Assembly (NCBI GenBank): GCA_934140285.1
Contig: CAKPBI010000001.1
Span: 211,515 to 275,514, forward strand
Direction: 5' to 3'
DNA from: an uncultured Bacilli bacterium
GTDB lineage: Bacteria; Bacillota_I; Bacilli_A; ML615J-28; CAG-313
DNA: 64,000 bases
Shown: positions 50,444-64,000 of the stretch, in pieces
Layout: each line of letters begins with the position of its first letter
How positions within the stretch are numbered: position 1 is the first letter of the stretch
Program-made: the position numbers and the translations under genes
The notes under the pieces: generated by a model
The model's database searches: none
Told to the model about the DNA's origin: nothing
What the model saw: only the letters and a program-made list of their open reading frames with translations

Positions 50444-51520
50444 ATGTCAAAAATCCAAGAATTTAACAATCTATTACAAGATGCAATTAATGAAGGAGCA
50501 TTTCCAGGTGCAAACTATGCAATAGTTTTTAAAGATAAAGTATTATTTGGTTCCTTTGGAAAGAAAAGTTTAATTCCAAATGTTGAAGAAAATGATATTG
50601 ATACAATCTATGATATGGCATCACTAACAAAAATTGTAAGCACTACAACCGCTGCCTTAAGATTAATTGAAAAAGGAAAACTTCGTTTATATGCACCAGT
50701 AAAAAAATATCTTCCTGAATTCAAATTTGATAATATTTCAATATGGAATTTAATGACACATACCTCAGGATTACCTGAAGGATTGCCTCATGCAAACACT
50801 CTAAGTGATCCAACTGAAGTATGGAATAAAATATTAAATATGGAATTAAAATATGAAACAGGAACTAAAATTCATTATTCAGATTTAGGTTATATTATCC
50901 TTGGAAAAGTTATAGAAAGTATTGTAAAGAAACCTTTAAATGAATTTGTTAAAGAGGAAATTTTTGATAAACTAAATATGAAAGATACAGGCTATCTTCC
51001 AGATTCTTTATTAAGATGTGCCCCAACTGAATATCGTGATGATGCAGTCTTTAAAGGAATTGTTCGTGGAAAAGTTCATGATGAAACATCATATGCTTTA
51101 GGTGGAGTAGCAGGTCATGCTGGTTTATTTTCAACAGTAAAAGATATGGCTAATTATTTACAAATGCTTTTAAATGATGGAATGTTTAATAATGAACACT
51201 TCTTATCAAAGGCAACAATTGATTTATTGTATACCCCACAAGTAGAAGAAAGAAATGGTGTATCATTAGTACTTGAAAGAAGATCAATCGGTTTTGTTAA
51301 TAAAGGTCCAGCCTCATCTGCTGGAGAATTAACAAGTAGTGAAACTATTCTTCATACAGGTTTTACCGGAACTAACATCTGGGTTGATCGAAAGAATGAA
51401 GTAGCTTTCGTACTACTTTCAAACCGTGTTCATCCAACTCGTAAGAATATCTTACATATGGATGCAAGAGCAAGACTTGCTAACTTTATAATCGCAAATC
51501 TTGATGAACTAAAAAAATAA
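50444..51520 (+). CDS. Class-C beta-lactamase-related serine hydrolase
   Basis: S-x-x-K motif (MASLTKIV), YxN-like and HxG elements; RBS AAGGAG; 12 nt after the tyrS stop. Confidence 0.8.
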   Translation: MSKIQEFNNLLQDAINEGAFPGANYAIVFKDKVLFGSFGKKSLIPNVEENDIDTIYDMASLTKIVSTTTAALRLIEKGKLRLYAPVKKYLPEFKFDNISIWNLMTHTSGLPEGLPHANTLSDPTEVWNKILNMELKYETGTKIHYSDLGYIILGKVIESIVKKPLNEFVKEEIFDKLNMKDTGYLPDSLLRCAPTEYRDDAVFKGIVRGKVHDETSYALGGVAGHAGLFSTVKDMANYLQMLLNDGMFNNEHFLSKATIDLLYTPQVEERNGVSLVLERRSIGFVNKGPASSAGELTSSETILHTGFTGTNIWVDRKNEVAFVLLSNRVHPTRKNILHMDARARLANFIIANLDELKK

Positions 51521-51536
51521 AGAAAGGAAAAATACA

Positions 51537-52220
51537 ATGAAAACTATTTTAGCAATCGGTGGTCACATTGGTGACATGGAACTTACCGCTGGTGGCATAA
51601 TGGCTACAAATGCAGTAAGAGGTGGAAAAAACATAATAATGGCACTAACTGCTGGTGAAAGAGGAAACCCTCCTCATATGACAATTCAAGAATACCGTAA
51701 ACAAAAGATTGAAGAAGCAAATAAGTTTGCGGAAATGGTAAATGGTGAAGCAATAGTTTTGAAATATGCTGATGGTGAGCTTCCTAATAATGATGAAGTA
51801 ATTAATGAAGTTGTTGATGTAATTGTAAAATATAAACCAAATGTAATCGTAACACATTGGCAAAGTACAATGCATCGTGACCATAACAACACCCATTTGA
51901 TTGTTCAAGAAGCCCAATTTAGAGCAGGTGTTGTAGGAAATAAAAATGGTGAAAGATTTTATGCGCCCCTTTATTTTTGTGAAAACTGGGAAGACTCAGA
52001 TAACTTTACACCATATGTTTATGTAGATATTACTGAAGGATTTGAATTATGGAAAAAAGCAATTCAAACGCATTGGTTTATTATGAATAGTAGTGACTTT
52101 AAATACTTTGATTACTATACATCACTTGCTCGCTGTCGTGGTGCTTTAATGAAAAAAGGCTATGCTGAATGCTTTGCTGTGCTCGACAGACAAAAGAAAA
52201 TATTTAAGGATGAACTATAA
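51537..52220 (+). CDS. PIG-L/LmbE-family N-acetylglucosaminyl deacetylase
   Basis: N-terminal LAIGGHIGDMELTAGG (variant of the AHPDDE segment); HxxH-type elements; 227 aa. Confidence 0.6.
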   Translation: MKTILAIGGHIGDMELTAGGIMATNAVRGGKNIIMALTAGERGNPPHMTIQEYRKQKIEEANKFAEMVNGEAIVLKYADGELPNNDEVINEVVDVIVKYKPNVIVTHWQSTMHRDHNNTHLIVQEAQFRAGVVGNKNGERFYAPLYFCENWEDSDNFTPYVYVDITEGFELWKKAIQTHWFIMNSSDFKYFDYYTSLARCRGALMKKGYAECFAVLDRQKKIFKDEL

Positions 52221-55159
52221 TGAAGAAAATATTAAGTATATTTTTAAGTCTATTTCTTCTTACAACTTTATCATTTTCTAATATTGTAAATAGTAAAAGT
52301 GATGATGAAGATTTCTTATTTTCGAATAAAAGTGGACCTCTATCAAAAATATATCATTATGGTACAGGTGAACCAGTAACTCTTCCTAAGAAATTTACTG
52401 TCTATGAATCAGAAATGCGTGGAGTATGGGTTGCTACTGTTTACAACATTGCGATTGGTAAACAAAATGGATTGGATAGTGAAGCCATCAATAGTTATAA
52501 AAAAGAATTTCTAACCATTCTTGATCGAATGGAAGAATTTGGAATGAACACATTATTCTTTCAAATAAGACCAAGTAATGATGCTTTTTATAAATCGGAA
52601 TTAAACCCATGGAGTGAATTCCTAGTTAGTGCTGGTGTTGACCCAGGATGGGATCCTCTTGAATGGATGATTGAAGAAACTCACAAACGTGGTTTTGATT
52701 TTCAATGTTGGATGAATGCTTATCGTGTAACAACATATAGTGTTTTAGATGATACAAGCAAAAAAGCAAGTACATACAGCAATGCTGACCTTTTAAAATT
52801 TAAAGAAAAAGCTATTGAAAAACTTGCTCCAAATAATTTTGCAAGGTTACATCCTGAATATGTTGTAATGGGAGAACATGATACAAGATTAATCTTAAAT
52901 CCAAGTGAAATTGCAGTTCAAGATTTTATTGTCGCAACCTTGAAAGAAATCATTGAAAATTATGATATTGACGGTATGCATTTTGATGACTACTTCTATC
53001 TAAATGGTTCTGTATCAAGTGATAAAGTTAATACTAACTTTGCTGGTGGAGAAAAATATGATAGTTCCTTATCAGGAAAAAATACCCTAAATGATTTAGG
53101 AAACTACCAAGAATACTTAAATAATGATCCTAAGTATGCTCATATGGAAAGAGGATATTCACTAGGTGATTTTAGAAGAGAAAACATCAATGTTATGATG
53201 CGTAGAATTCGTGCTATGGTTGATGAATACAATGAAACTAATAATAAAATAGTTGAATTTGGTTCCAAACCTGCTGCAGTATGGCGTAGTAATTCTGAAT
53301 ATTGTACAGAAAGTGTTGACCGTTGTTCACCAGATGGTTCTAATACCGTATCAGGTGCTTACTCATCATACTCAGATCTTTTTGCTGACACATGGAAATG
53401 GGTAGAAGAAGGATTAGTTGACTATGTAGCTCCACAAGTATATTATGCCTTTGAAGACAATGTTGCTGCCTATGCTGATATCGTTGATTGGTGGGCAAAG
53501 AAGGTAACGGAATTAAATAAAGTACGCACTAGTGAAGGGAAAAAAGAAATCAAATTGTATGTTGCTCATGGAATATATAAATATCGTGATGCTCCATCAC
53601 AATTTTATAATCCATCAGAGATTAGAAACCAAATTGTTTATAATAAAAAATATCCGGTTATTAAAGGTTCGGCTTTATATTCATATGAAAATCTTTATGT
53701 TTTCTCTAGTGAAACTCATGAAAAAGGAATATCATTCTTGAAAAACAATTGGGTTAATAATCCAGTTTATCCAATCCAACGTGGTAATGATGATTCGGAA
53801 GGTTTAGTTGTGAAAGACTATAAATTATCTATGGATACACTAGACAATAGTGTAAATATTACCTTTGATAAAATGCCTTCTTCAAGAGTGTATGGTATAT
53901 ATAAAGTTTTAAAAGGAACAGAATTTACAGCGAGTGTAGATTCACGAATTAATGTAACTTATGATCCATATGTTGCAGGTGAAAAAGCAACACTTAGAAT
54001 TTATGATTATGATGAAAACTATGATTACTATGTAAAAGTAGTATCAACAAATGGTTATGTTTCATCACTTTCAACAAAACTAGATTTTACTAATATGGAA
54101 GAATACGAATCAATTAAAATTAACTATCTATCACAACTTCCAACCGAAATTAAATGTAATGAAACAATAAATTTAAGATTTAACATCTCAAATTTAACAA
54201 ATCATAATCTAGAATATACAGTAAATTATTTTGAAAATGATGTTGACAAAAAAAGAGTAATTGCGAGTGGAAGTATTACTTCAAATACATTTGAAATTCC
54301 ATATAAAGCATACCCATATACAACATCAAATTCACAACTAAAAATAACCATTACTGATGGTACTGCTTCAATTAGTGTTCTTACAAATAAGTTTAATACG
54401 GTAAATGAATATACACAATTAAATGTCAAAGATTTTACCAAAATTCAAACAAGATTTAGTTATAAAACTCCTGTTTCAATTGATGTAAGTATAAATAGTA
54501 CAAATGATTTAGAGTATAATTATGTACTATTAGCGGTTAATGAAGCAAACTATACTACAGAAGAAGTAAAAAAAGGAACATTGAAAGGAAGTACAACCCT
54601 AACTCTTGATGATATTAAGTTAAGTGAGGGAACATACCATTTTGTTCTAAAACTTACTCAAAACGATTATTCAACAACATATACATCTAATACATTTAAA
54701 GTAATTAGAACCAACTATCTAGATAATACTAGTATAAAGATTACTGACTATAATCCAGTTGTAGGGAAAAATATAATTATTAATATTTCAACTTATGGAA
54801 TAAACGGCTATAATTATAAACTACTACTTCTTGATAATGATAATAATATAATCAAAGTTTTGGATGAAGGTATCGTTGAAGGTAATTATATAGGTACAAT
54901 GTATAAAATTAATGAAAGCGACACATCATTTAAGATAAGAGTAATAATTGACAACAAAGGCATTACTGAATATTTAGATAGCGATTTAGTTGTTGTAAAA
55001 AAAGAAGTAGAACCTGATGATCCTACCCCTACTCCAGTTCCAGATGATCCTGTAGTGGATGATAAAAAAGGATGTAATTGTAAAAAATCAATATTGGAAG
55101 TTACTACTTTAATAATTACTTTAACATGTTTTATGTTTATAGTAAGAAAAAGAAAATAG
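52220..55159 (+). CDS. GHL10 (YngK-like, 'family 10 glycosylhydrolase'-like) paralog 1: secreted, Ig/FN3-like C-terminal repeats, KGCNCKK-TM-RKRK C-terminal anchor
   Basis: Signal peptide; GHL10 motifs MRGVWVATV..N, LFFQIRPSNDAFYKSELNPWSE, DPGWDPLEWMIEE and DGMHFDDYFY. Confidence 0.75.
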   Translation: MKKILSIFLSLFLLTTLSFSNIVNSKSDDEDFLFSNKSGPLSKIYHYGTGEPVTLPKKFTVYESEMRGVWVATVYNIAIGKQNGLDSEAINSYKKEFLTILDRMEEFGMNTLFFQIRPSNDAFYKSELNPWSEFLVSAGVDPGWDPLEWMIEETHKRGFDFQCWMNAYRVTTYSVLDDTSKKASTYSNADLLKFKEKAIEKLAPNNFARLHPEYVVMGEHDTRLILNPSEIAVQDFIVATLKEIIENYDIDGMHFDDYFYLNGSVSSDKVNTNFAGGEKYDSSLSGKNTLNDLGNYQEYLNNDPKYAHMERGYSLGDFRRENINVMMRRIRAMVDEYNETNNKIVEFGSKPAAVWRSNSEYCTESVDRCSPDGSNTVSGAYSSYSDLFADTWKWVEEGLVDYVAPQVYYAFEDNVAAYADIVDWWAKKVTELNKVRTSEGKKEIKLYVAHGIYKYRDAPSQFYNPSEIRNQIVYNKKYPVIKGSALYSYENLYVFSSETHEKGISFLKNNWVNNPVYPIQRGNDDSEGLVVKDYKLSMDTLDNSVNITFDKMPSSRVYGIYKVLKGTEFTASVDSRINVTYDPYVAGEKATLRIYDYDENYDYYVKVVSTNGYVSSLSTKLDFTNMEEYESIKINYLSQLPTEIKCNETINLRFNISNLTNHNLEYTVNYFENDVDKKRVIASGSITSNTFEIPYKAYPYTTSNSQLKITITDGTASISVLTNKFNTVNEYTQLNVKDFTKIQTRFSYKTPVSIDVSINSTNDLEYNYVLLAVNEANYTTEEVKKGTLKGSTTLTLDDIKLSEGTYHFVLKLTQNDYSTTYTSNTFKVIRTNYLDNTSIKITDYNPVVGKNIIINISTYGINGYNYKLLLLDNDNNIIKVLDEGIVEGNYIGTMYKINESDTSFKIRVIIDNKGITEYLDSDLVVVKKEVEPDDPTPTPVPDDPVVDDKKGCNCKKSILEVTTLIITLTCFMFIVRKRK
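55004..55159 (+). other. C-terminal tripartite anchor of paralog 1: Pro/Asp-rich linker, KGCNCKK motif (55070), one TM helix, RKRK tail
   Basis: VEPDDPTPTPVPDDPVVDDKKGCNCKKSILEVTTLIITLTCFMFIVRKRK. Confidence 0.7.
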
Positions 55160-55164: not shown

Positions 55165-55196
55165 AGAGGGCTAAGAAATCTTAGCCCTTTTATTTC
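55165..55196 (+). terminator. Rho-independent terminator
   Basis: AGGGCTAAGA-aat-TCTTAGCCCT followed by TTTATTTCT. Confidence 0.85.
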
Positions 55197-55274
55197 TAAA
55201 ATATTTGCTATTTTAAAGAAAATATTATATAATAAAGTTACTAAAAACAAAAAATAAAAAAAGGGAGAATGACA

Positions 55275-56174
55275 ATGAAAATATATGATACACATAGTGA
55301 TGTTTTTTCAAATTTATACGAAAGAACTTTAGAAGGTATTAAAGATCCTTTTCGAAAATATCATTTAGAAGCCATGAAACAAGGGGAAATACATGGAGGA
55401 ATTTGGGTAGTTTATAGTGAGTATGATTTTAATGTACTAGAAGCCTATAAAATAGCATATGAAGCCTTTAAGCCATATAAAGATAATTATGATGTATTAC
55501 TTGGATTAGAAGGCCTTCGTAATGTTCATACATTAGATGATTTAAATGAAATGTATAATTTTGGTGTAAGACATGCTACGCTTACATGGAATGAAGAAAA
55601 TCATCTAGCAACAGGGGTTGCGGGAGACAAAGATCGTGGATTAACAAACCTTGGAAAAGAATTTTTGGATTATATGTATAAACATCATATGGTCATTGAT
55701 GTATCACACTTAAATATAAAAAGTTTTTATGATGTTTTAGAATATATGCCTCATAATATTATCGCAAGTCATTCTAATGCATATACTTTAAGTGATCATC
55801 GCCGAAACTTAAATGATGATCAACTTAGATTAATGAGAGAAGTAGGAGGATATGTAGGAGCCGTTAGTGCGAGAAACTTTGTTTCGAAAGATCCAAGCCT
55901 ACAAAACACGATCGGTCTTGCCGATCAAATCATTTATCTTGGCGAAAAAATAGGAATTGATCATGTTATGCTTGGCCTTGACATTATGGATTTCTTAAAG
56001 AGCTACGATGATCATAATGCCAACTTAGATGATTTAAGAGGCCATATGGATGCTCAAAATTTAATTAAAGAATTAACGAAGAGAAATCTAACCAAAGAAG
56101 AAATCGAAGGAATAGCTTATAATAATTTTTTAAGATATAAGAAAGGAATAAAAGTTAATGAAGAAATTATTTAA
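55275..56174 (+). CDS. Membrane-dipeptidase (peptidase M19, renal-dipeptidase-like) family protein
   Basis: N-terminal IYDTHSDVF (parallels IDGHNDL) and HSNAYTLSDHRRNLNDDQL; start ATG 55275 after AAGGGAG. Confidence 0.7.
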   Translation: MKIYDTHSDVFSNLYERTLEGIKDPFRKYHLEAMKQGEIHGGIWVVYSEYDFNVLEAYKIAYEAFKPYKDNYDVLLGLEGLRNVHTLDDLNEMYNFGVRHATLTWNEENHLATGVAGDKDRGLTNLGKEFLDYMYKHHMVIDVSHLNIKSFYDVLEYMPHNIIASHSNAYTLSDHRRNLNDDQLRLMREVGGYVGAVSARNFVSKDPSLQNTIGLADQIIYLGEKIGIDHVMLGLDIMDFLKSYDDHNANLDDLRGHMDAQNLIKELTKRNLTKEEIEGIAYNNFLRYKKGIKVNEEII

Positions 56175-58665
56175 AAAAGTAGCCCTTATGGGAATTTGTT
56201 TGTTGGCCTTCTTCATGCTAATTTGTACAACTATATCAAAAGCAGCATGGGATGGAAAATTTGTTCCATATACTCAAGTATCTACAGATATGCGAGCTGT
56301 GTGGGTTGCGACTGTCGGTAATCTTAATATTGACCGTCAACTAGGTACAGATGAAGCTGCCATTTCATCATGGAAGAATGAATATATCAAAATATTAGAT
56401 AATGCTGAAGCAAATCATTTTAATACAATCGTATTCCAAGTAAGACCTGCAAATGATGCATTTTATCCATCTAAGTATAATCCATGGAGTGAGTATTTAG
56501 CAGGATATGGTGTTGATCCTGGCTGGGATCCTCTTGAATGGATGATTGAGGTGACCCATAATAGAGGCCTTGAATATCATGCATGGCTAAATCCTTATCG
56601 TGCATCAACTGGTTCCACTACTTCTATGATGGTAAAAGATCCAGCGACAGGTATTGAAAAAATTAAAGATATTGATGTTACTGAATTAAATAACTTTAAA
56701 GACACATACTTTGGAAGAAAGAAAGAACAAGCAGAAGGCATTGATAATCCAGTTTTTGAAACTGGTAATGAACTTCATCATAATGTTGTGCTTGGAGCAG
56801 AAGATTTGTTTGTTTTAAATCCTGCATCAGAAAAAGTAAGAAATCATGTTACAAATACCATAATGGAAATTGTAGAAAACTATGACATTGATGGAATTCA
56901 TTTTGATGACTATTTTTATCCAAATGATGCATCTTATATAGGAAGTAATGCAGCTTATAAGGGTTATACCTTCTCAACAGAACCATGGGTTGATATGGCT
57001 GATTATGAACAATATGTAAGTGAAACTACGACTCCTCTTAATATATATGATTGGCGCCGTGAAAATGTAAATAAACTAATTAAACAAATTAGTGATGCAG
57101 TTAGAGAAAAGAATAATACTAAAGAAGTAAAATGTGCATTTGGCATAAGCCCCGCATCACGTTGGGCACCTACTGTTGAGGCTTGTTCAAGTGAACCTCA
57201 AAGAGGAGCAGAAGGCGGAATGCTTGGTAGTTGTAATAACTATTATTCATATTCAGACTTATTTGCTGATACCTTAAAATGGGCTAAAGAAGAATGGATA
57301 GATTATATTACTCCTCAAAATTATACTCACCTAAAAGGTGATTATGATGTTATTGCTAAATGGTGGAGTAACGCTTTAAAGGATAGCAAAACTAAACTAT
57401 ATATGGGTACTGCCCTATATCAAGTAAAGGAATCTTGGGGATATGGTTTAACAGAAATGTACTACCAAGTAACTTACAATTCTGCTCATCTTGAAAAAGT
57501 AGAAGGATATTTCATATTTAGTTATTCAAGCTTACTTACTCGTGATGGTGGCCTTGCTATGTCAACTGTCGCAAAATATGCTTGGAAATATAATGCTTTA
57601 ACTCCACTTTATGGAGCATATACATATGATAAAAAGGTAGCACAAAAGGCTACTCCTAAAAATATTAATATTGAAGAAAACCAAGTATCAATTAAAGTTA
57701 ATAAGGTTGACAAAGCTAAGGGTTATGGAATATATGAATTTGATGAACAAACTTCAAACCTTGGTGATTTTGTCCCTTCAAACCTTAGAGCCTTAGAAAT
57801 TAATCCTAATAAAGAACTAACATTTACAAAAAATGAAAACAAGGTATATGCTCTTGTAACTTTTGATCAAGATAACTCAATCTATGAAGATGTTGAATGG
57901 TTAGTACTAGAAAATAATCGCCCAACCGTAGATTTAAAAGTAAACAAAAATCAATTTTTATATGATGAAGAAATAAATGTAGATGTAACAATTGAAGATG
58001 ATGATAGTGATTATTATTATTTAACAATTATATATTCTTCAAATGGTTCATCAATTGGTACGGAAATTGTCAAGGATGAAAAAATAACATCTAAAGAATA
58101 TCATACTACATTTAAAGCACCACATTTTTCTACTAACAATGGAAAGATAATTGTAATAGTAAAAGACATAATTGATACTGTTCAAGTGGATGCACCAATT
58201 TCTATCAAGAGTGCACCACCAGTAGTCACGCTTCCAAAGATTGATGATTTTCATATAAAAACAGTTCAAAACTTTAAAGTAACGATTACAGATGATGAAC
58301 AAACAAACTTAAATTATAAACTATATATCTCTGTAGAAGATGGAGAATATGAACTAATAGATGAAGGAAAAATTAAACCTGGAGAATTAACATTTAATTA
58401 TTCAACAATTATTCCTCATATAAATTGTAAATTCAAACTCGTAGTAAGTGATAATGATAATCAAGTTGAAGTTACATCTAATACATTTAATATTACAAAA
58501 CTAGTAGAACCTGATGATCCAGGTGATAATGATCCAGATACAGAACCTGAACCAGAAGTTCCAACCAAACCAAAGGGTTGTAATTGTAAGAAAAATATTG
58601 AGCTAGTGCTTGCTGGTATAACAATTATTACTTGTGCTTTATTTATTATAAGAAAGAGAGACTAA
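56158..58665 (+). CDS. GHL10 paralog 2: secreted, Ig-like C-terminal repeats, KGCNCKK-TM-RKRD C-terminal anchor
   Basis: Signal peptide; MRAVWVATVGN, TIVFQVRPANDAFYPSKYNPWSE, DPGWDPLEWMIE and DGIHFDDYFY. Confidence 0.75.
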   Translation: MKKLFKKVALMGICLLAFFMLICTTISKAAWDGKFVPYTQVSTDMRAVWVATVGNLNIDRQLGTDEAAISSWKNEYIKILDNAEANHFNTIVFQVRPANDAFYPSKYNPWSEYLAGYGVDPGWDPLEWMIEVTHNRGLEYHAWLNPYRASTGSTTSMMVKDPATGIEKIKDIDVTELNNFKDTYFGRKKEQAEGIDNPVFETGNELHHNVVLGAEDLFVLNPASEKVRNHVTNTIMEIVENYDIDGIHFDDYFYPNDASYIGSNAAYKGYTFSTEPWVDMADYEQYVSETTTPLNIYDWRRENVNKLIKQISDAVREKNNTKEVKCAFGISPASRWAPTVEACSSEPQRGAEGGMLGSCNNYYSYSDLFADTLKWAKEEWIDYITPQNYTHLKGDYDVIAKWWSNALKDSKTKLYMGTALYQVKESWGYGLTEMYYQVTYNSAHLEKVEGYFIFSYSSLLTRDGGLAMSTVAKYAWKYNALTPLYGAYTYDKKVAQKATPKNINIEENQVSIKVNKVDKAKGYGIYEFDEQTSNLGDFVPSNLRALEINPNKELTFTKNENKVYALVTFDQDNSIYEDVEWLVLENNRPTVDLKVNKNQFLYDEEINVDVTIEDDDSDYYYLTIIYSSNGSSIGTEIVKDEKITSKEYHTTFKAPHFSTNNGKIIVIVKDIIDTVQVDAPISIKSAPPVVTLPKIDDFHIKTVQNFKVTITDDEQTNLNYKLYISVEDGEYELIDEGKIKPGELTFNYSTIIPHINCKFKLVVSDNDNQVEVTSNTFNITKLVEPDDPGDNDPDTEPEPEVPTKPKGCNCKKNIELVLAGITIITCALFIIRKRD
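58504..58665 (+). other. C-terminal tripartite anchor of paralog 2: acidic/Pro linker, KGCNCKK motif (58576), TM helix, RKRD tail
   Basis: VEPDDPGDNDPDTEPEPEVPTKPKGCNCKKNIELVLAGITIITCALFIIRKRD. Confidence 0.7.
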
Positions 58666-58667: not shown

Positions 58668-59918
58668 ATGAAACTAAATAAATATCGTAGTGATGAATAT
58701 GTACATTATTGGAATTCTGATGAAGTCGTAGAAATTCCTGAATATCATTTTGACAAGCAAAGTGTAAGAGGCGTATGGGTATCTACCGTAGCTAATATTG
58801 ATGTTCCTAAAGGCCTACCTGAAAATGAATATAAAGAATACTTAACAAAGATGATTGAAAATATTGCAAATTATAACATTAACACAATAATTTTCCAAGT
58901 TCGTCCTAACAATGATGCTTTCTATCCATCAAAACTAAATCCATGGTCTAGATATATAACGGGAGAAGAAGGTAAAGATCCTGGTTTTGATGTTTTAAAA
59001 TATGTCATTGAGGAAGCTAAAAAACATGATATTAAAGTACATGCTTGGATGAATCCATATAGAGTATCACAAGCATCATTAGATCAACTAAACATGACAA
59101 AAGAGGAATATTTAGCGACTCTTGCACCAAACAATTTTGCAAGACTTCATCCTGAACACACTATCTTAGATGGTGCTAATAAAATAATTCTTTCTCCAAG
59201 TCATCCCGAAGTAATTGATTTTGTTACTAAAACTATAATGGAAGTTGTTGACAACTACGATGTGGAAGGTGTTCACATAGATGATTACTTCTATCCATAT
59301 GCAAAAATCCCAGAAGAAAGAGAACAAGAAGATTATTTAAAATATCGTTTAGATGAAACACAATGCCTTGATGATTTTAGAAGAATGAATGTAAATAAAA
59401 TGATTAAGAACATTCATGATGCATTGAAAAATTCGTTTAGCAAAAATAATAAAAAAGTTTTATTTGGAATTAGTCCTTTCGCAATCTATCGTACAAATTC
59501 TGCTATTCTTGAAGGTGGTTGGGAAAAAGGATCATACAATGCTGCTGGTGCATTACAATGCTATAGTGAACTTTATTCCGATGTTTACCTTTGGATGAAG
59601 GAAAATTGGATTGATTATGTAGTACCTCAAGTATACTTCCCATTTGAAAGAAAAGATGTTACATACCATGATCTAACAAAATGGTGGAGTGATATTTGTA
59701 ATGAAACACATACGATTCTTTACATCGGTATGGGATTATATCAAATGGGTTCTAATGAAGTATGGCAAAATCCAAATGAAATTGAAAATCAATTAAGATT
59801 TAATTGTAATTTTAATAACGTTGCGGGGACAATCTTTTTCACATATCATGATCTTGTAAAAGGTCAAAATGAAATAAAAGATGAAGCATTAGATACGATT
59901 AAAAAATTATGGAAATAA
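58668..59918 (+). CDS. GHL10 paralog 3: catalytic domain only, with no signal peptide and no C-terminal anchor
   Basis: VRGVWVSTVAN, TIIFQVRPNNDAFYPSKLNPWS, DPGFDVLKYVIEE and EGVHIDDYFY; ATG 2 nt after the upstream stop. Confidence 0.7.
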   Translation: MKLNKYRSDEYVHYWNSDEVVEIPEYHFDKQSVRGVWVSTVANIDVPKGLPENEYKEYLTKMIENIANYNINTIIFQVRPNNDAFYPSKLNPWSRYITGEEGKDPGFDVLKYVIEEAKKHDIKVHAWMNPYRVSQASLDQLNMTKEEYLATLAPNNFARLHPEHTILDGANKIILSPSHPEVIDFVTKTIMEVVDNYDVEGVHIDDYFYPYAKIPEEREQEDYLKYRLDETQCLDDFRRMNVNKMIKNIHDALKNSFSKNNKKVLFGISPFAIYRTNSAILEGGWEKGSYNAAGALQCYSELYSDVYLWMKENWIDYVVPQVYFPFERKDVTYHDLTKWWSDICNETHTILYIGMGLYQMGSNEVWQNPNEIENQLRFNCNFNNVAGTIFFTYHDLVKGQNEIKDEALDTIKKLWK

Positions 59919-59922
59919 ACAA

Positions 59923-59952
59923 AGAGCATCCTAAATTGGATGCTTTTTTCTG
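59923..59952 (+). terminator. Rho-independent terminator
   Basis: AGCATCC-taaatt-GGATGCT followed by TTTTTTC. Confidence 0.85.
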
Positions 59953-59999: not shown

Positions 60000-60028
60000 T
60001 TGAATAAAAACGCTTACTTTGATATAAT
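60000..60028 (+). promoter_or_regulatory. Sigma-A promoter (TTGAAT-17-TATAAT with extended TG) of the GH20-like/SBP genes
   Basis: TTGAATaaaaacgcttactttgaTATAAT. Confidence 0.6.
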
Positions 60029-60078
60029 AAGTTAAGTAAATTGGGAAAAAAGCGCAAACCTTAAGGAGATGGCAAAAT

Positions 60079-61893
60079 ATGTATATAGTTCCTACCCCCA
60101 AGTCTTTCCAAACAACCTCTGGAAAATTCAATTTAAATCGTGAATTAACAATTAAAAACAATGAATTTTCTGAGAATTTAATTGAGATATTAAAGAAAGA
60201 TTTAAAGCTTAAAGACATAAAATTAAATAACGAGACATCATGTATAGATATAGAATTTATATACAGTAAAAAGTTAAAAAAAGAAGAATACTTAATAGTA
60301 GTTAATCCTAACAAAATTGAGATAACAGCATCAACTGAAGCTGGAATCTTTTATGGGATAAAAACATTAAAACAATGTGTTGAAAACAAAAACATTGAGT
60401 GTTTTGAGATAAAAGATTACCCTGATCTTGAAATCAGAGGGGCAATGATTGATATAAGTCGTTCAAAAGTTCCAACATTAAAAACTTTAAAAGAAATAGT
60501 TCAAATTTTATCAGATTTAAAATACAATCATTTAGAACTTTATGTTGAAGGCTTTTCATATGAGTATCAAAGTTTTAAAGATGTGTTAGTTGAAAAAAAT
60601 TATATAACGCTTAATGATTACCTTGAATTGGAAACGTTTACGGAAAAGAACTACATCGATCTTGTTCCAAATCAAAATGGCTTTGGTCATATGAATGCTT
60701 GGCTTATGAAAAAAGAATATCATGAACTAGCTGAATGCCCTGATGGATTTACTATATGGGGATCTCATCGCTCTTCAAGTACTTTAGATCCAACCAATCC
60801 TAAGAGTTTTAAACTTGTGAAAAAGATGTATGATGATATGCTACCACATTTCAAATCAAAATATTTTAATATGAATTTTGATGAACCTTATGAATTAGGT
60901 CACGGAAAAAGCAAAGAAGCATGTGAAAAAACATCAGTTGCGGATGTATACATTGATTTTTTACTACCACTTTATAAGGTAGTTAAAAAATATAAAAAGA
61001 CGCCACTTATGTGGGGTGATGTATTAATTCATCATCCTGAGGCTTTAAATCGTTTACCAAAAGATTTAATCTTTGTAGATTGGGGTTATAACTTAAATTA
61101 TGACTTTGAATCACATGGGAAAATGCTTAGGGAACACGATGTAAAATTTATGATGGCTCCAGGAACTTCAACATGGAGTACCATCACTTCTAGATACTAT
61201 GATATGGTTGGTTCAATAAAAAATAGTTCAGAAGCAACCAAAAAGTATCAAGGACTTGGTCTTTTAGTTACTGATTGGGGTGACATTGGTCATTTACAAT
61301 ATTTGCCATTTAGTTATCCAGGATTTATCTATGGATCTGAATGTGCATGGTCAAAGCCAAATGAAGAAATAATTAAACCATATCTTGATAAATTAGTTGG
61401 TCCTATTTCTTCAAATGCAATTTTAAAACTTGCTACATACACTACTCTTGAAGGTGAGTATCGTGACTATGGTAGCAGATTGTTCAGCGCAATTTTATGG
61501 GCTGAACACTCACAAAATCAAGGAGATCAAATTAAATACTTCTTGGAAAAAATGAAATCAAATCTAATTGAAGATAAAAACCTAAAACAATTAGAAACGA
61601 TGTTTAATGATGTAATAAGAGATATTCGTTTAGAAGACACTTTAGTTAAAGGAGAAATTGAAAACAGCATAAATTTACTTTTAACTTTAGTTGATATTCA
61701 ACGCAATCTAAAAAAAGTGCTTTTCAATGATGAACACAACGTATTTGAAAAAGACATCTTAATTCTTAATGCTTTTATTAAAAAACATCATGAATTATGG
61801 TCAATCAGAAACGTTGAAGCTGGGTTTATTCCTAGCAGTAATCGTATTAAATGGCTAATTAATATTTTGACAGCTATAGATGGAAGGAGATAA
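60079..61893 (+). CDS. GH20-like beta-N-acetylhexosaminidase-family protein (cytoplasmic) with divergent catalytic motifs
   Basis: RGAMIDISRSKVP..LKYNHLELYVEG parallels RGxMLDxxR..N.LHLHLTDD of GH20; NMNFDEPYE lies at the H-x-GGDE position; RBS TAAGGAG. Confidence 0.5.
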   Translation: MYIVPTPKSFQTTSGKFNLNRELTIKNNEFSENLIEILKKDLKLKDIKLNNETSCIDIEFIYSKKLKKEEYLIVVNPNKIEITASTEAGIFYGIKTLKQCVENKNIECFEIKDYPDLEIRGAMIDISRSKVPTLKTLKEIVQILSDLKYNHLELYVEGFSYEYQSFKDVLVEKNYITLNDYLELETFTEKNYIDLVPNQNGFGHMNAWLMKKEYHELAECPDGFTIWGSHRSSSTLDPTNPKSFKLVKKMYDDMLPHFKSKYFNMNFDEPYELGHGKSKEACEKTSVADVYIDFLLPLYKVVKKYKKTPLMWGDVLIHHPEALNRLPKDLIFVDWGYNLNYDFESHGKMLREHDVKFMMAPGTSTWSTITSRYYDMVGSIKNSSEATKKYQGLGLLVTDWGDIGHLQYLPFSYPGFIYGSECAWSKPNEEIIKPYLDKLVGPISSNAILKLATYTTLEGEYRDYGSRLFSAILWAEHSQNQGDQIKYFLEKMKSNLIEDKNLKQLETMFNDVIRDIRLEDTLVKGEIENSINLLLTLVDIQRNLKKVLFNDEHNVFEKDILILNAFIKKHHELWSIRNVEAGFIPSSNRIKWLINILTAIDGRR

Positions 61894-61896
61894 AAT

Positions 61897-64000
61897 ATGA
61901 AGAGAATTAGAAAAGTATTTATTTTTACCTTAATATTTCTTTGTGCATCTTACTTTCTTTTAAATGCTAGTGGCGTTGTAAAAAGTCATGTATATGCTGA
62001 TGATAATACAACAACAACAACTGGTACTACCTCAAGTTCTACCTCGAGTAATGGAGCTTACAGCAAATATTTAGAAGAAAAGAAAGCACACCACTTAGAA
62101 ACATATGGTAATGAGGATTATTATCCTCAAGGAGTAGAAATAATAGCTAATGCTGATAACTATGATGCTGAACATAGTGATACTGATAAATCAGGCGTTA
62201 GACCATATGACTATGAAGTAACTGAAGGAACTGATAAAGGTTCAAGACCTTATGTGGTTGATAATGCTAGTGATGAACTTAAAAATTCTAAACTAATTTA
62301 TCAAGAAGATTCAGGAAGTGTTTCACTTGCGTTTAACGTTCAAAAAGCTGGTTTCTATTCAATTTATCTAGATTATTTTACAGTTAAGGGATATAGTTCA
62401 TCAATTGAAAGAGGCATTAAAATTAATGGTGAAACACCTTTTGAAGGTACTGAAGCCTTAACCTTCTCACGTGTTTGGAAAGATTCTGAAGAATCTTTTG
62501 AAGATGGAAATTTCAAATCTGATACAAGAGGTAACCACTTAAAACCAAAACAAGTTGAAGAACATACATATACAGGAACATACATAAGAGACTATATGTA
62601 TTATGAAACAACCCCATATCAATTTTACTTTGAAGAAGGTTTAAATTATATTACATTTGATGCAGTAAAAGAACCACTTGTAATATATAAGTTAACTGTT
62701 GAAACAGCTGTTGAACAAAAAGTTTATAAGGATTATCTAAATGATTTATTAAAAACTTATCCAAATAATAATTTAACTAATTCATCATATAGATTTGAAG
62801 CAGAAAGAAGTTTATACAAATCTTCTCCTACTCTATATCCAACAACTGACCGTTCAAGTTCTTTAACAGAACCTTTCTCTTATACTAAGACTTACCTAAA
62901 CGCAATCGGTGGTACTAGTTGGAAAGTATTAGGTGATTGGATTGAATGGGAGTTCACAGTTCCTGAAGATGGTTATTATAATATTTCAATGCGTGCTAAA
63001 CAAAATATGGTAAGAGGAATGTACTCAAGCCGTATGGTTTATATTGATGATGAAATATTATTCGATGAACTAAATGACGTTCAATTCGCTTATAGTGGAA
63101 AATGGCAAAATGTAACATTAGGAAATGAAGATGGAGACTTCCTATTCTACTTTAAAGCAAAAGATGAAAGCGGAAATGCAATCAAACATACAATTCGCAT
63201 GGAAGTAACATTAGGTGAATATGCATCATTAATTAGTCGTATTCAAGATGTTGTAACAAAATTAAATAACTTATATCGTTCAATTATTAGTTATACAACT
63301 GTTACTCCAGATGCTAATCGTGACTATCAATTACATGTTCGTTTCCCTGAATATGCAGGCGAAGATGGATTAATCGCTCAATATCGTAATGAACTTCAAG
63401 ATATTTCTGATAATATTACTAGAATCTCTGGAACAAAGAGTGATAAAACTGGTGTTATCGATAGCGTAGTTGTTCAATTGACTGACTTCTTAAAAGATAA
63501 CCTTCGTTCAATTCCTAATCGTTTAAGTACATTCTCCAATAACATTTCATCTCTTGGTACCATTCTTAATGATTTAAGAGAATTACCATTAATGATTGAT
63601 TATATTGAAGTACATACTCCAGATGTAAAAATCCAAAAACCAAATGAAAGTTTCTTCCGTGGCATGTGGGATGGCGTTGTTTCATTCTTCCTATCATTCT
63701 TTATTGATTATTCATCAATTAGTAAAACTGTTGAAGGCGGAAATACTCAACGTACAATTGAAGTTTGGATGACTCAAGGTCGAGACCAAGCTAATGTTAT
63801 AAGAAACTTAATTGATACTGACTTTACTCCAAAAACCAACATTAACGTTGAATTAAAACTAACGGCAGCCGATGTATTGTTAAAAGCAACACTTGCGGGA
63901 ATCGGTCCAGATGTTGCTTTAAACGTTGATTCAAGTTTACCTGTTAACTATGCCTTAAGAAATGCCGTACTTGACCTATCATCATTCATTTATGAACTTG
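61897..64000 (+). CDS. Large secreted protein, 3'-partial: signal peptide, Thr-rich linker, N-terminal region of about 560 aa of unknown fold, then a domain with an ABC-type solute-binding-protein signature
   Basis: ORF open to the window end (not in the track); RBS GGAAGGAG; N-terminal MKRIRKVFIFTLIFLCASYFL; late segment IEVWMTQGRDQANVIRNLIDTDFTPKTNINVEL resembles family-1 SBPs. Confidence 0.55.
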   Translation, partial: MKRIRKVFIFTLIFLCASYFLLNASGVVKSHVYADDNTTTTTGTTSSSTSSNGAYSKYLEEKKAHHLETYGNEDYYPQGVEIIANADNYDAEHSDTDKSGVRPYDYEVTEGTDKGSRPYVVDNASDELKNSKLIYQEDSGSVSLAFNVQKAGFYSIYLDYFTVKGYSSSIERGIKINGETPFEGTEALTFSRVWKDSEESFEDGNFKSDTRGNHLKPKQVEEHTYTGTYIRDYMYYETTPYQFYFEEGLNYITFDAVKEPLVIYKLTVETAVEQKVYKDYLNDLLKTYPNNNLTNSSYRFEAERSLYKSSPTLYPTTDRSSSLTEPFSYTKTYLNAIGGTSWKVLGDWIEWEFTVPEDGYYNISMRAKQNMVRGMYSSRMVYIDDEILFDELNDVQFAYSGKWQNVTLGNEDGDFLFYFKAKDESGNAIKHTIRMEVTLGEYASLISRIQDVVTKLNNLYRSIISYTTVTPDANRDYQLHVRFPEYAGEDGLIAQYRNELQDISDNITRISGTKSDKTGVIDSVVVQLTDFLKDNLRSIPNRLSTFSNNISSLGTILNDLRELPLMIDYIEVHTPDVKIQKPNESFFRGMWDGVVSFFLSFFIDYSSISKTVEGGNTQRTIEVWMTQGRDQANVIRNLIDTDFTPKTNINVELKLTAADVLLKATLAGIGPDVALNVDSSLPVNYALRNAVLDLSSFIYEL

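What the first reader, a model, noticed from the sequence alone, without database searches (positions are those of the whole stretch)
50444..64000. Candidate cell-wall / amino-sugar foraging locus built around three tandem GHL10 paralogs
Downstream of tyrS lie, in order, a class-C-type serine hydrolase (DD-peptidase-like), a PIG-L deacetylase, GHL10 paralog 1, an M19 dipeptidase, GHL10 paralogs 2 and 3, a GH20-like hexosaminidase and a large solute-binding protein. GHL10/YngK-like proteins have no established substrate. The genes with assignable roles match the bond types of peptidoglycan or other GlcNAc-containing polymers: peptidases for stem peptides including D-amino-acid dipeptides, a hexosaminidase, a deacetylase, and an uptake SBP. 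The same window also encodes two giant surface proteins ending in MurNAc-L-Ala amidase domains. Of the three GHL10 paralogs, two are surface-anchored and one is cytoplasmic, which suggests staged extracellular then intracellular processing. The combination suggests a dedicated system for scavenging or remodelling cell-wall glycans, with the GHL10 enzymes as the unknown glycosidase step.
Basis: partly seen in the sequence, partly recalled or inferred. Interest (0 to 1): 0.72.

Follow-up and report, generated by a model that had tools for sequence, protein, structure and literature searches.

The report
Peptidoglycan-scavenging gene cluster in gut bacterium
This gene cluster, from a gut relative of the mycoplasmas, most likely cuts up bacterial cell-wall material (peptidoglycan) outside the cell, imports the pieces and dismantles them inside; related clusters occur in relatives that have no cell wall of their own, so the material probably comes from other bacteria.

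Summary
All seven domain calls pass Pfam thresholds, in the stated order and at the stated coordinates. Two GHL10 proteins have a signal peptide and a C-terminal membrane anchor; the third has neither.

The core interpretation is supported, but one premise is outdated. GHL10 already has peptidoglycan (PG)-cleaving members: C. difficile Cwp19, a lytic transglycosylase, and E. coli DigH, a denuded-glycan hydrolase. The three paralogs are 37-40% identical to Cwp19 and keep its proposed active-site residues. GHL10c is 33% identical to DigH.

The locus runs about 10.7 kb past the window: the rest of the 1127-aa binding protein, two ABC permeases, an NHL/TPR protein, Yip1 and DUF5696. It is syntenic in about 19 species-level MAGs.

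More distant versions add unambiguous PG genes:
- LD-carboxypeptidase and a DAP-type decarboxylase, once fused to the M19 dipeptidase.
- AnmK, a MurR-like regulator and Amidase_2 in the Izemoplasma/Acholeplasma group.
- GH73, SpoIID and NamZ in wall-less Haloplasma contractile.

Best reading: a PG acquisition and breakdown system. It is a new variant of known PG-recycling systems. The cytoplasmic GHL10, an oligosaccharide-type ABC importer and an atypical PIG-L protein are the unexplored parts. All evidence is computational.

The parts
50444..51520 (+). Cytoplasmic PF00144 serine hydrolase, PBP4B-like (358 aa). Probably processes D-amino-acid stem peptides or MurNAc-peptides.
   Evidence: Pfam PF00144 at 186.6 bits. 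The best NCBIfam match is PBP4B at 162 bits, below its 385-bit cutoff. It is 28% identical to E. coli YfeW/PBP4B (E=4e-41), whose gene sits in murQ-murP-yfeW. Motifs S60-L-T-K, Y145-S-D and H304-T-G are present. No hydrophobic segment. It is the partner of GHL10 found across all the locus types examined.
51537..52220 (+). Cytoplasmic PIG-L-fold protein (227 aa) with an atypical catalytic motif; reaction uncertain.
   Evidence: Pfam PIG-L at 71 bits. The motif is G-H-I-G-D rather than A-H-x-D-D, and this is conserved in 7 orthologs. The best PDB hit is GalB 4-oxalmesaconate hydratase, followed by BshB1, BC1534 and diacetylchitobiose deacetylase.
52220..55159 (+). GHL10a: membrane-anchored, outward-facing GHL10 glycan-cleaving enzyme (979 aa). 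Catalytic domain at about residues 57-503, then about 450 aa with no recognised domain, then a C-terminal Cys motif, transmembrane helix and basic tail.
   Evidence: Pfam GHL10 at 163.5 bits. It is 40% identical to Cwp19 and keeps W, Q, W, R, DDY, Q and Y of the proposed active site, with three substitutions: S250K, G328A and F367Y. Hydropathy.
55165..55190 (+). Terminator-like hairpin after GHL10a, followed by a promoter-like site at 55205-55233.
   Evidence: sequence. These are consensus matches only.
55269..56174 (+). Cytoplasmic M19 dipeptidase (301 aa; gene callers start it at 55275).
   Evidence: Pfam M19 at 198.3 bits. An N-terminal H9-S-D motif is present. The nearest structures are Listeria renal-dipeptidase-family proteins 3neh and 3lu2. 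In L025 the ortholog is fused to an Orn/DAP decarboxylase.
56158..58665 (+). GHL10b: second membrane-anchored surface GHL10 enzyme (835 aa).
   Evidence: Pfam GHL10 at 189.6 bits. It is 38% identical to Cwp19, with all 13 proposed active-site positions conserved. Signal plus C-terminal transmembrane helix.
58668..59918 (+). GHL10c: cytoplasmic GHL10 enzyme (416 aa), the best-conserved gene of the locus.
   Evidence: Pfam GHL10 at 219.9 bits. Cwp19 (5oq2) E=6.6e-73. 33% identical to E. coli DigH, E=5e-71. No signal peptide in any ortholog. The orthologs group together in an unbootstrapped NJ tree spanning gut, Izemoplasma and Acholeplasma lineages.
59921..59948 (+). Terminator-like hairpin after GHL10c, followed by a promoter-like site at 60000-60028.
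   Evidence: sequence. These are consensus matches only.
60079..61893 (+). Cytoplasmic, divergent GH20 beta-N-acetylhexosaminidase (604 aa).
   Evidence: PF02838 at 73 bits and PF00728 at 56.9 bits. The D268-E269 catalytic pair is present. The nearest solved relatives are lacto-N-biosidases, E about 1e-13.
61897..64000 (+). First 701 of 1127 residues of a giant binding protein: signal/anchor, two beta-sandwich (CBM-like) modules, a helical bundle, then the start of a family-1 oligosaccharide-binding domain. The gene continues past the window end.
   Evidence: AlphaFold model with pLDDT 81.4 and pTM 0.77. Foldseek best hits are oligosaccharide-binding proteins, TM 0.63-0.73 normalised by target. 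Some homologs carry PF16990 CBM_35.
35247..42797 (+). Giant surface protein (2516 aa) with GDPD phosphodiesterase and Amidase_2 domains. Probable upstream partner that strips stem peptides, and possibly teichoic acid.
   Evidence: The equivalent giant Amidase_2 protein is syntenic in L093/L094. An Amidase_2 lipoprotein is directly adjacent in 7 of the 10 Izemoplasma/Acholeplasma-type loci.
115..3543 (+). Second large surface protein with an Amidase_2 domain (at least 1142 aa; may begin before the window).
47925..48968 (+). LacI-family (CcpA-like) regulator, syntenic with the locus. Candidate regulator, not shown to act on it.
   Evidence: LacI-TyrS-PF00144 synteny occurs in L010, L016, L017 and L023 and with two inserted genes in L093.
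45854..47122 (+). Divergent MurC-like Mur ligase, syntenic with the locus. Its role (own wall synthesis or Mpl-like salvage) is undetermined.
   Evidence: MurC model 276 bits against a 335-bit cutoff; Mpl model 124 bits. Synteny.
48959..50431 (+). Degenerate T-box leader (48959-49130) and tyrS (49199-50431). tyrS ends 12 nt before the PF00144 gene.
   Evidence: RF00230 at 48.2 bits, E=9.2e-10, below the 93-bit gathering score. Pfam on tyrS. Tight spacing is conserved in five other species.

Best explanation
The segment is the first 13.5 kb of a peptidoglycan (PG) acquisition and breakdown locus of about 24 kb, probably three transcription units. It belongs to a low-GC gut bacterium related to Anaeroplasma and Acholeplasma.

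Proposed mechanism. Homology and context are shown; the enzyme activities and substrates are inferred.

1. Outside the cell, giant surface proteins with Amidase_2 domains strip stem peptides from PG. The membrane-anchored GHL10a and GHL10b, homologs of Cwp19 and DigH, cut the glycan strands.
2. A 1127-aa surface binding protein, with two CBM-like modules fused to an oligosaccharide-type binding domain, captures the fragments. It hands them to a two-permease ABC importer. That importer is encoded with an NHL/TPR protein, a Yip1 membrane protein and a membrane-anchored DUF5696 protein that is probably a glycosidase.
3. In the cytoplasm, GHL10c and the GH20 hexosaminidase depolymerise the imported glycan.
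4. The PBP4B-like PF00144 hydrolase and the M19 dipeptidase take apart stem peptides that contain D-amino acids.
5. The PIG-L-fold protein modifies an amino sugar by a reaction that is not yet clear.

Related loci occur in lineages without a wall, so the main substrate is most likely PG shed by or taken from other bacteria, used chiefly as nutrient.
For: Family level:
- All three paralogs are 37-40% identical to Cwp19 over the whole catalytic domain and keep its proposed active-site residues.
- GHL10c is 33% identical to DigH.
- Cwp19 cleaves PG as a lytic transglycosylase (PMC6016235). DigH degrades denuded PG glycans (PMC12288456).

Topology:
- Two GHL10 proteins are surface-anchored. GHL10c and all the peptidases are cytoplasmic.

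Transport:
- The binding protein is followed by two permeases, and its fold matches oligosaccharide binders.

Conserved context:
- 13 loci at 65-76% GHL10c identity share the order M19-GHL10b-GHL10c-GH20-binding protein-permeases where the contig reaches.
- 6 loci at 45-53% place PF00144 and M19 beside GHL10c. Four of them add LD-carboxypeptidase S66. Four add an Orn/DAP decarboxylase next to M19, fused to it in L025.
- 10 Izemoplasma/Acholeplasma-type loci at 40-43% have GHL10c followed by a 1300-1400-aa protein with two GHL10 domains (cut by the contig end in L028). PF00144 follows in 9 of them. All 10 have AnmK (320 bits in L029). Most also have a MurR-like regulator, a BadF/G kinase and GH4, and 7 have an Amidase_2 lipoprotein.
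- Haloplasma contractile has GHL10, PF00144, GH73, SpoIID, a binding protein, the large binding protein, two permeases, an unknown protein, Yip1, DUF5696, two more permeases, DUF624 and NamZ.

Wall-less relatives:
- Izemoplasma is wall-less by TEM (PMC8397711).
- Haloplasma was described as wall-less (title cited in PMC8397711).

Other links:
- E. coli PBP4B, the nearest curated relative of the PF00144 protein, is encoded in murQ-murP-yfeW.
Against: - No biochemical or expression data exist for any gene of this locus.
- No MurQ, AnmK, MurK, NagA or NagB gene lies in the window or within the roughly 10 kb seen downstream, so the fate of MurNAc in this organism is unknown.
- The window encodes a MurC-like ligase, so this organism may have a wall. 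Own-wall turnover cannot be excluded for it.
- The GH20 is nearest to lacto-N-biosidases, which act on host glycans.
- The PIG-L protein lacks the canonical catalytic Asp.
- One GHL10 member, DogH, was reported to hydrolyse starch (PMC9967864).
- Topology rests on hydropathy alone.
- The taxonomic labels of the MAGs are the submitters' own.
Confidence: 0.6

Rival explanations
1. Own-wall maintenance. The GHL10 enzymes are autolysins or division hydrolases acting on the cell's own thin wall, and the importer and cytoplasmic enzymes recycle the turnover products, as in B. subtilis or E. coli recycling.
For: - Both characterised GHL10 enzymes act on the producer's own wall: Cwp19 in autolysis (PMC6016235) and DigH in cell separation (PMC12288456).
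- The window has a MurC-like ligase syntenic with the locus.
- 40-60% of Anaeroplasmataceae genomes carry mur genes (PMC10868615).
Against: - Homologous loci are conserved in Izemoplasma-labelled MAGs and in Haloplasma contractile, lineages without a wall (PMC8397711).
- Giant surface proteins with many adhesin-type repeats plus amidase and GDPD domains, and a binding protein with CBM-like modules, suggest capture of external polymer.
Confidence: 0.15
2. Anabolic salvage. The organism cannot make PG precursors de novo and uses the locus to obtain muropeptides or MurNAc for building its own wall, as Tannerella forsythia does. The neighbouring MurC-like ligase would then act as an Mpl-like peptide ligase.
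For: - PMC10868615 predicts that RF39, RFN20 and ML615J-28-type lineages lack precursor steps and would need scavenged muropeptides.
- The divergent MurC-like ligase scores below the MurC cutoff and is syntenic with the locus.
- T. forsythia depends on exogenous MurNAc (abstract of bioRxiv 10.1101/2021.12.02.470905).
Against: - The dipeptidase, LD-carboxypeptidase and the DAP-type decarboxylase fused to M19 point to destruction of stem peptides rather than reuse.
- The wall-less lineages keep the system.
- The ligase scores far higher on the MurC model than on Mpl: 276 against 124 bits.
Confidence: 0.1
3. A different GlcNAc-containing substrate. The locus degrades chitin oligomers, host mucin, N-glycans, HMO-type glycans or PNAG, and the GHL10 enzymes have a specificity other than PG.
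For: - GH20 is nearest to lacto-N-biosidases.
- The PIG-L fold is shared with diacetylchitobiose deacetylases.
- The binding protein resembles generic oligosaccharide binders.
- The closest structural neighbour of Cwp19 is the PNAG-processing PgaB (PMC5765458).
- DogH was reported active on starch (PMC9967864).
Against: - Three peptidase families specific for D-amino-acid or PG peptides travel with the GHL10 genes: PF00144, M19 and S66.
- AnmK, Amidase_2, NamZ, SpoIID and GH73 are PG-specific partners in homologous loci.
- No GH18, GH19, GH2, GH29, GH33 or similar genes were seen in any annotated neighbour.
Confidence: 0.1
4. Coincidental neighbours. These are unrelated genes that happen to lie downstream of tyrS, with no functional unit.
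For: - tyrS, a housekeeping gene, sits 12 nt upstream of the first gene.
- In L093 cysK- and cysE-like genes are inserted.
Against: - The order is conserved across about 19 species at 45-76% GHL10c identity, and the core across about 10 more.
- There is a gene fusion, LysA-type decarboxylase with M19.
- Intergenic gaps are short or overlapping.
Confidence: 0.03

Closest known systems
Cwp19 of Clostridioides difficile (GHL10; PDB 5oq2/5oq3)
   Same: Same Pfam family. 37-40% identity over the whole TIM-barrel catalytic domain. The proposed active-site residues are conserved. Like GHL10a and GHL10b, it is displayed on the cell surface.
   Different: Cwp19 is held by CWB2 wall-binding repeats and acts as an autolysin on its own wall. 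Here the anchor is a C-terminal membrane helix, one paralog is cytoplasmic, and the genes sit with an importer and peptidases.
DigH (YddW) of E. coli, the denuded-glycan hydrolase
   Same: 33% identity, E=5e-71, to GHL10c over 403 residues. A preference for peptide-free glycans would fit action after the surface amidases.
   Different: DigH is a periplasmic lipoprotein of the divisome, encoded as a lone gene between dosC and gadC. It has no linked transporter or peptidases.
B. subtilis murQ-murR-murP-amiE-nagZ-namZ PG-recycling and MurNAc-catabolic operon (PMC8054146)
   Same: The logic is the same: secreted enzymes free sugars and peptides from PG, the products are taken up, and they are catabolised in the cytoplasm. 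From my own knowledge, AmiE belongs to the same PF00144 fold family; I did not test this here.
   Different: The window locus has no MurQ, MurP (PTS), GH3 NagZ or NamZ. It uses GHL10 and GH20 enzymes and an ABC importer of oligosaccharide type, and some depolymerisation appears to occur in the cytoplasm. NamZ does appear in the Haloplasma version.
E. coli murQ-murP-yfeW (PBP4B)
   Same: The PF00144 protein is most similar to PBP4B among curated families. PBP4B is likewise encoded beside MurNAc catabolic genes.
   Different: 28% identity only, and below the equivalog cutoff. The window protein lacks a signal sequence.
Tannerella forsythia MurNAc/PG scavenging (NamZ1 and NamZ2; bioRxiv 10.1101/2021.12.02.470905)
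   Same: A bacterium that lives on PG fragments released by neighbours.
   Different: A Gram-negative organism with different enzyme families and transporters. There the purpose is anabolic, because the organism is auxotrophic for MurNAc.

Membership tests
GHL10 (PF02638), the Cwp19/DigH group of PG glycan-cleaving enzymes | Pfam GHL10 model above the gathering score | tested here: met
   163.5, 189.6 and 219.9 bits against a 27.9-bit cutoff.
GHL10 (PF02638), the Cwp19/DigH group of PG glycan-cleaving enzymes | Full-length similarity to the characterised members | tested here: met
   Cwp19 E=6.6e-73. 37-40% identity for all three paralogs. DigH 33% identity, E=5e-71, for GHL10c.
GHL10 (PF02638), the Cwp19/DigH group of PG glycan-cleaving enzymes | Conservation of the proposed Cwp19 active-site residues (W36, Q77, W127, R132, D195, D196, Y197, S250, Q295, Y297, G328, F367, S368; PMC5765458) | tested here: met
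   13 of 13 in GHL10b. 12 of 13 in GHL10c (S368T). 10 of 13 in GHL10a (S250K, G328A, F367Y).
GHL10 (PF02638), the Cwp19/DigH group of PG glycan-cleaving enzymes | Cleavage of the PG glycan backbone (lytic transglycosylase or hydrolase) | not testable with these tools
   Needs an enzyme assay. The context of AnmK, NamZ and amidases in homologous loci is consistent with it.
PF00144 / MEROPS S12, PBP4B-like | Pfam model, and the SxxK, Y-x-N/D and H/K-T-G motifs | tested here: met
   186.6 bits. S60-L-T-K, Y145-S-D and H304-T-G align with the same motifs of E. coli PBP4B.
PF00144 / MEROPS S12, PBP4B-like | NCBIfam PBP4B equivalog cutoff | tested here: not met
   162.4 bits against a 385-bit cutoff. 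It is a relative, not an equivalog.
PIG-L / LmbE de-N-acetylases | Pfam PIG-L model above the gathering score | tested here: met
   71 bits against a 28.2-bit cutoff.
PIG-L / LmbE de-N-acetylases | A-H-x-D-D motif with the general-base Asp | tested here: not met
   The motif is G-H-I-G-D; the first Asp is Gly. This is conserved in 7 orthologs. GalB hydratase has H-S-A-D at the same place. The His and second Asp, and the later H-R-D-H, are kept.
Peptidase M19 (renal-type dipeptidase) | Pfam model; N-terminal H-x-D metal motif | tested here: met
   198.3 bits, though the profile matched only from position 102. H9-S-D11 is present.
GH20 beta-N-acetylhexosaminidase | GH20b and GH20 catalytic-domain models; adjacent Asp-Glu catalytic pair | tested here: met
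   73 and 56.9 bits, both above cutoff. D268-E269 lie in N-F-D-E-P. The protein is divergent: the best PDB E-value is about 1e-13.
Family-1 (CUT1-type) carbohydrate ABC binding protein | Binding-protein HMM hit in the protein itself | tested here: not met
   No Pfam or NCBIfam hit for the window fragment, and no Pfam hit for the full-length protein.
Family-1 (CUT1-type) carbohydrate ABC binding protein | Profile-level, fold-level and context evidence | tested here: met
   Profile against the PDB: 5ysb 7e-8 and 5ci5 1.7e-7. Homologs carry PF13416/PF01547. Foldseek TM 0.63-0.73 by target. Two BPD_transp_1 permeases are adjacent.
Canonical MurNAc recycling operon (MurQ pathway) | MurQ etherase, a MurNAc transporter (MurP) or AnmK in the locus | tested here: not met
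   None occurs in the window or in the roughly 10 kb seen downstream. The more distant Izemoplasma/Acholeplasma-type loci do carry AnmK and a MurR-like regulator. Whether the genes exist elsewhere in this genome could not be checked.

The most novel reading that the evidence does not exclude
Wall-less and wall-reduced relatives of the mycoplasmas (Anaeroplasma-like gut bacteria, Izemoplasma, Acholeplasma, Haloplasma) share an ancient, dedicated 'peptidoglycan utilization locus' and feed on the walls of other bacteria.

Its distinctive parts would be:
- the first cytoplasmic GHL10 enzyme, which would cleave imported PG oligosaccharides. That implies uptake of PG glycan oligomers rather than monosaccharides or anhydro-disaccharide peptides;
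- a new ABC importer for those oligomers, with a binding protein fused to CBM-like modules and with Yip1, NHL/TPR and DUF5696 accessory proteins;
- a PIG-L-fold enzyme with non-deacetylase chemistry.

From my own recollection, Anaeroplasma bactoclasticum was named for lysing other bacteria; the literature search here did not retrieve a source for this. Such a system could be the genetic basis of that activity.
Probability: 0.35. Interest if true: 0.75.

Novelty: new variant of a known kind. Interest (0 to 1): 0.6.

Why it matters
PG is one of the most abundant bacterial polymers in the gut, and its fragments are potent immune signals. Very few dedicated systems for consuming exogenous PG are known.

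If this locus works as proposed, it would matter in three ways:
- It would give a genetic marker for PG consumers among the uncultured, genome-reduced gut Bacilli.
- It would explain why lineages that have lost their own wall keep a full set of wall-degrading genes.
- It would offer concrete candidates for unknown steps: a cytoplasmic GHL10 enzyme, an oligosaccharide-type importer for PG glycans, and roles for DUF5696 and bacterial Yip1 proteins.

It also bears on the published prediction that these lineages must scavenge muropeptides (PMC10868615).

Tried and rejected
- Rfam at gathering thresholds over the whole window found nothing. A T-box leader before tyrS appears only below threshold.
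- A cre/LacI-type operator scan (TGNAANCGNTNNCA, one mismatch) gave 9 hits against 10.5 expected, so there is no enrichment and no site in the putative promoters.
- Pfam on the full-length binding protein at E<=1 gave nothing useful.
- NCBIfam gave no family for the three GHL10 proteins, M19 or the binding protein.
- The C-terminal tails of the surface GHL10 proteins matched no known CTERM sorting-domain model convincingly. The best was the LPXTG_anchor model at 16 bits, on the TM plus basic part of one Izemoplasma-type tail, which has no LPXTG motif.
- The non-catalytic C-terminal regions of GHL10a and GHL10b show no detectable similarity to each other, to the giant surface proteins or to the N-terminal half of the binding protein.
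- Literature searches for DUF5696, for peptidoglycan utilization or foraging loci and for further GHL10/COG1649 characterisations found no description of such a locus.
- The Izimaplasma genome paper PMC5113845 is not held.
- I considered that the three GHL10 genes were recent tandem duplicates and rejected it. They are only 36-37% identical to each other and fall in separate groups of an unbootstrapped NJ tree.
- The second structure-prediction job was not used. No remaining question could be settled by a fold.

Full report
OBSERVATION

All ORFs are on the + strand, with short or overlapping gaps. Pfam gives the following, each above its gathering score:
- tyrS, 49199-50431.
- PF00144, 50444-51520, 186.6 bits.
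- PIG-L, 51537-52220, 71 bits.
- GHL10a, 52220-55159, 979 aa, 163.5 bits.
- M19, 55269-56174, 198.3 bits.
- GHL10b, 56158-58665, 835 aa, 189.6 bits.
- GHL10c, 58668-59918, 416 aa, 219.9 bits.
- GH20b plus GH20, 60079-61893, 73 and 56.9 bits.
- An ORF from 61897 that is cut by the window end.

Hydropathy shows an N-terminal signal and a C-terminal helix with a basic tail in GHL10a and GHL10b. GHL10c, PF00144, PIG-L, M19 and GH20 have no hydrophobic segment. The two upstream giant proteins with Amidase_2 domains exist.

THE LAST GENE AND WHAT LIES BEYOND THE WINDOW

The same DNA occurs in at least 23 metagenome contigs. On longer contigs the cut ORF is an 1127-aa protein. It is followed by two BPD_transp_1 permeases (617 and 339 aa), a 645-aa NHL/TPR protein with a signal and a C-terminal helix, a Yip1 membrane protein and a 1256-aa membrane-anchored DUF5696 protein.

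The 1127-aa protein has no Pfam hit of its own. Four results nevertheless identify it as a binding protein:
- A profile of 11 orthologs hits family-1 sugar-binding proteins in the PDB.
- Homologs carry PF13416/PF01547, and sometimes CBM_35.
- An AlphaFold model (pLDDT 81.4, pTM 0.77) shows an anchor helix, two beta-sandwiches, a helical bundle and a binding-protein domain.
- That domain best matches binders of oligosaccharides: sophoro-, cello-, malto- and cyclo-oligosaccharides.

Terminator-like hairpins, each followed by a promoter-like site, lie after GHL10a and after GHL10c. This suggests three transcription units, at consensus level only.

WHAT GHL10 IS

The statement that GHL10 has no established substrate is outdated.
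- C. difficile Cwp19, a GHL10 protein, degrades PG with lytic transglycosylase activity (PMC6016235). Its structure is solved (PMC5765458).
- E. coli DigH (YddW) degrades denuded PG glycans at the septum (PMC12288456).

GHL10c hits Cwp19 at E=6.6e-73 and is 33% identical to DigH. All three paralogs are 37-40% identical to Cwp19 and keep its proposed active-site residues, with three substitutions in GHL10a. They are only 36-37% identical to each other and fall in separate groups of an unbootstrapped NJ tree, so they are old paralogs.

One counter-example exists. DogH of Deinococcus was reported to release maltose from starch (PMC9967864), but DogH is only 21% similar to Cwp19.

COMPARATIVE GENOMICS

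I scanned one genome per species with a GHL10c profile and mapped all locus proteins onto the retrieved loci.

(a) Thirteen loci at 65-76% GHL10c identity are labelled Bacilli, Acholeplasmatales, Anaeroplasma or Mollicutes. They repeat M19-GHL10b-GHL10c-GH20-binding protein-permeases-NHL/TPR-Yip1 where the contig reaches. LacI-TyrS-PF00144-(PIG-L) lies upstream in several of them. A further species keeps even the giant Amidase_2 protein and the Mur ligase in place.

(b) Six loci at 45-53% identity place PF00144 and M19 beside GHL10c.
- Four add an LD-carboxypeptidase (S66).
- Four add an Orn/DAP-type decarboxylase next to M19, fused to it in L025.

(c) Ten loci at 40-43% identity come from MAGs labelled Izemoplasma, Mariniplasma, Acholeplasma or Tenericutes.
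- GHL10c is followed by a 1300-1400-aa surface protein with two GHL10 domains (cut by the contig end in L028). PF00144 follows in nine of the ten.
- All ten carry AnmK (320 bits in L029). Most also carry a MurR-like RpiR/SIS regulator, a BadF/G-type sugar kinase and GH4.
- Seven have a Big_2 plus Amidase_2 lipoprotein.
- L029 also has EtfAB with an FAD-linked oxidase. That could handle the D-lactate released from MurNAc; this is my inference.

(d) The cultured Haloplasma contractile has a homolog of the large binding protein at 44% identity. Its locus reads GHL10, PF00144, GH73 glucosaminidase, an unknown protein, SpoIID, a binding protein, the large binding protein, two permeases, an unknown protein, Yip1, DUF5696, two permeases, DUF624 and NamZ.

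AnmK, LD-carboxypeptidase, Amidase_2, GH73, SpoIID and NamZ are all PG-specific. A few Bacteroidota GHL10 genes also sit beside AnmK or NamZ.

WALL-LESS CARRIERS

Izemoplasma lacks a wall by electron microscopy (PMC8397711), and Haloplasma was described as wall-less. A PG-degrading and importing locus in such organisms cannot serve their own wall, which favours foraging.

For the window organism the question is open.
- It carries a divergent MurC-like ligase: 276 bits against a 335-bit cutoff, and 124 bits on the Mpl model.
- PMC10868615 reports mur genes in 40-60% of Anaeroplasmataceae genomes.
- The same paper predicts that related orders need scavenged muropeptides.

MECHANISM

Homology and context are shown; activities are inferred.
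1. Surface amidases free the glycan.
2. GHL10a and GHL10b cut it.
3. The binding protein, with its CBM-like modules, and the ABC permeases import oligomers.
4. GHL10c and GH20 finish depolymerisation in the cytoplasm.
5. PF00144 and M19 process stem peptides.

Supporting details:
- PF00144 is PBP4B-like: 28% identity, the same SxxK, YSD and HTG motifs, and E. coli PBP4B is encoded in murQ-murP-yfeW.
- M19 has its H-x-D motif, and its nearest structures are Listeria renal-dipeptidase-family proteins.
- In relatives, LD-carboxypeptidase and the decarboxylase complete the route to lysine.

A cytoplasmic GHL10 is unlike both characterised members, which act outside the cytoplasm.

UNEXPLAINED POINTS

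- The PIG-L homolog has G-H-I-G-D where deacetylases have A-H-x-D-D. The change is conserved in 7 orthologs. Its best PDB hit is the hydratase GalB. Its reaction is therefore uncertain.
- The GH20 is nearest to lacto-N-biosidases, so a disaccharide-releasing activity is possible.
- tyrS, with a degenerate T-box leader, ends 12 nt before PF00144. This tight spacing recurs in five other species, but L093 has cys genes inserted there.
- No MurQ or AnmK gene lies near the locus in the gut clade.

COMPARISON AND NOVELTY

The logic matches known PG recycling and scavenging systems: the B. subtilis murQRP-amiE-nagZ-namZ operon (PMC8054146), E. coli murQP-yfeW, and T. forsythia. The parts differ:
- GHL10 and GH20 replace GH3 NagZ and NamZ.
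- An oligosaccharide-type ABC importer with accessory proteins replaces PTS-type uptake (MurP) in the B. subtilis and E. coli operons.
- One glycan-cleaving enzyme is cytoplasmic.
- The system is kept in lineages without a wall.

I found no description of such a locus in the literature searched. I rate it a new variant of a known kind, of moderate to good interest. All evidence is computational.

Noticed in passing
window 55040-55156 and 58540-58662; orthologs in L009-L038 (for example L010:7821-9998 and L026:11218-15204): The surface GHL10 proteins end in a Pro/Asp/Glu-rich linker, a short Cys motif (K-G-C-N-C-K-K here; GC, KGC, CxxC or TGC in most complete orthologs, while three Izemoplasma/Acholeplasma-type proteins show none next to the helix), a helix of about 20 hydrophobic residues and a basic tail. 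This tripartite layout resembles C-terminal sorting signals such as MYXO-CTERM. No known model matches it, and there is no LPXTG motif.
   Followed up: partly
window 51537-52220: The PIG-L-family protein has G-H-I-G-D instead of the A-H-x-D-D catalytic motif: the general-base Asp is replaced by Gly. This is conserved in 7 orthologs. The best solved relative is the hydratase GalB, not a deacetylase.
   Followed up: partly
window 35247-42797: A 2516-aa surface protein combines a GDPD glycerophosphodiester phosphodiesterase domain (residues 279-503), Listeria-Bacteroides repeats, Big_2 domains and an Amidase_2 domain (2213-2413). It may attack both teichoic acid and PG. It has no C-terminal anchor.
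   Followed up: partly
window 48959-49130: The tyrS leader is a shortened T-box. It scores 48.2 bits against a 93-bit gathering score (E=9e-10). The GGUGGUACCGCG box is intact, and a UAC triplet lies in a segment of the stem I region left largely unaligned by the model. It was missed at Rfam's curated threshold.
   Followed up: yes
window 50431-50444; L010, L016, L017, L023, L038: tyrS stops 12 nt before the PF00144 gene with no terminator between them. This tight spacing is conserved in five other species, which suggests co-transcription of a tRNA synthetase with the first genes of the locus. One species (L093) has cysK- and cysE-like genes inserted there.
   Followed up: partly
window 45854-47122: A divergent MurC-like ligase scores below the MurC equivalog cutoff. 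Its orthologs are only 44-46% identical, while neighbouring genes are about 70% identical. It is syntenic with LacI, tyrS and the locus in several species. It could be a fast-evolving MurC or a salvage ligase.
   Followed up: partly
L090:16886-19456 (Haloplasma); L006:20806 onward and L089:15726-18485 (window species): DUF5696 is encoded after Yip1 in both the gut and the Haloplasma loci. It has an N-terminal membrane helix. It shows weak but significant similarity (E about 1e-6) to a GH129-type 3,6-anhydro-D-galactosidase, so it is probably an uncharacterised surface glycosidase.
   Followed up: partly
L025:5072-7291: A natural fusion of an Orn/DAP-type PLP decarboxylase with the M19 dipeptidase (739 aa). 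It links dipeptide cleavage to decarboxylation of the released amino acid, presumably meso-DAP to lysine.
   Followed up: partly
L054, L061 (Flavobacterium) and L063 (Marinifilum): Outside the Mollicutes-related clade, some Bacteroidota GHL10 genes also lie within about 2 kb of AnmK, or directly beside NamZ.
   Followed up: no
window 47295-47858: A 187-aa predicted lipoprotein (signal ending L-I-T-S-C) has no family match. It lies between the Mur ligase and the LacI regulator. It is absent from one otherwise identical contig (L002).
   Followed up: no
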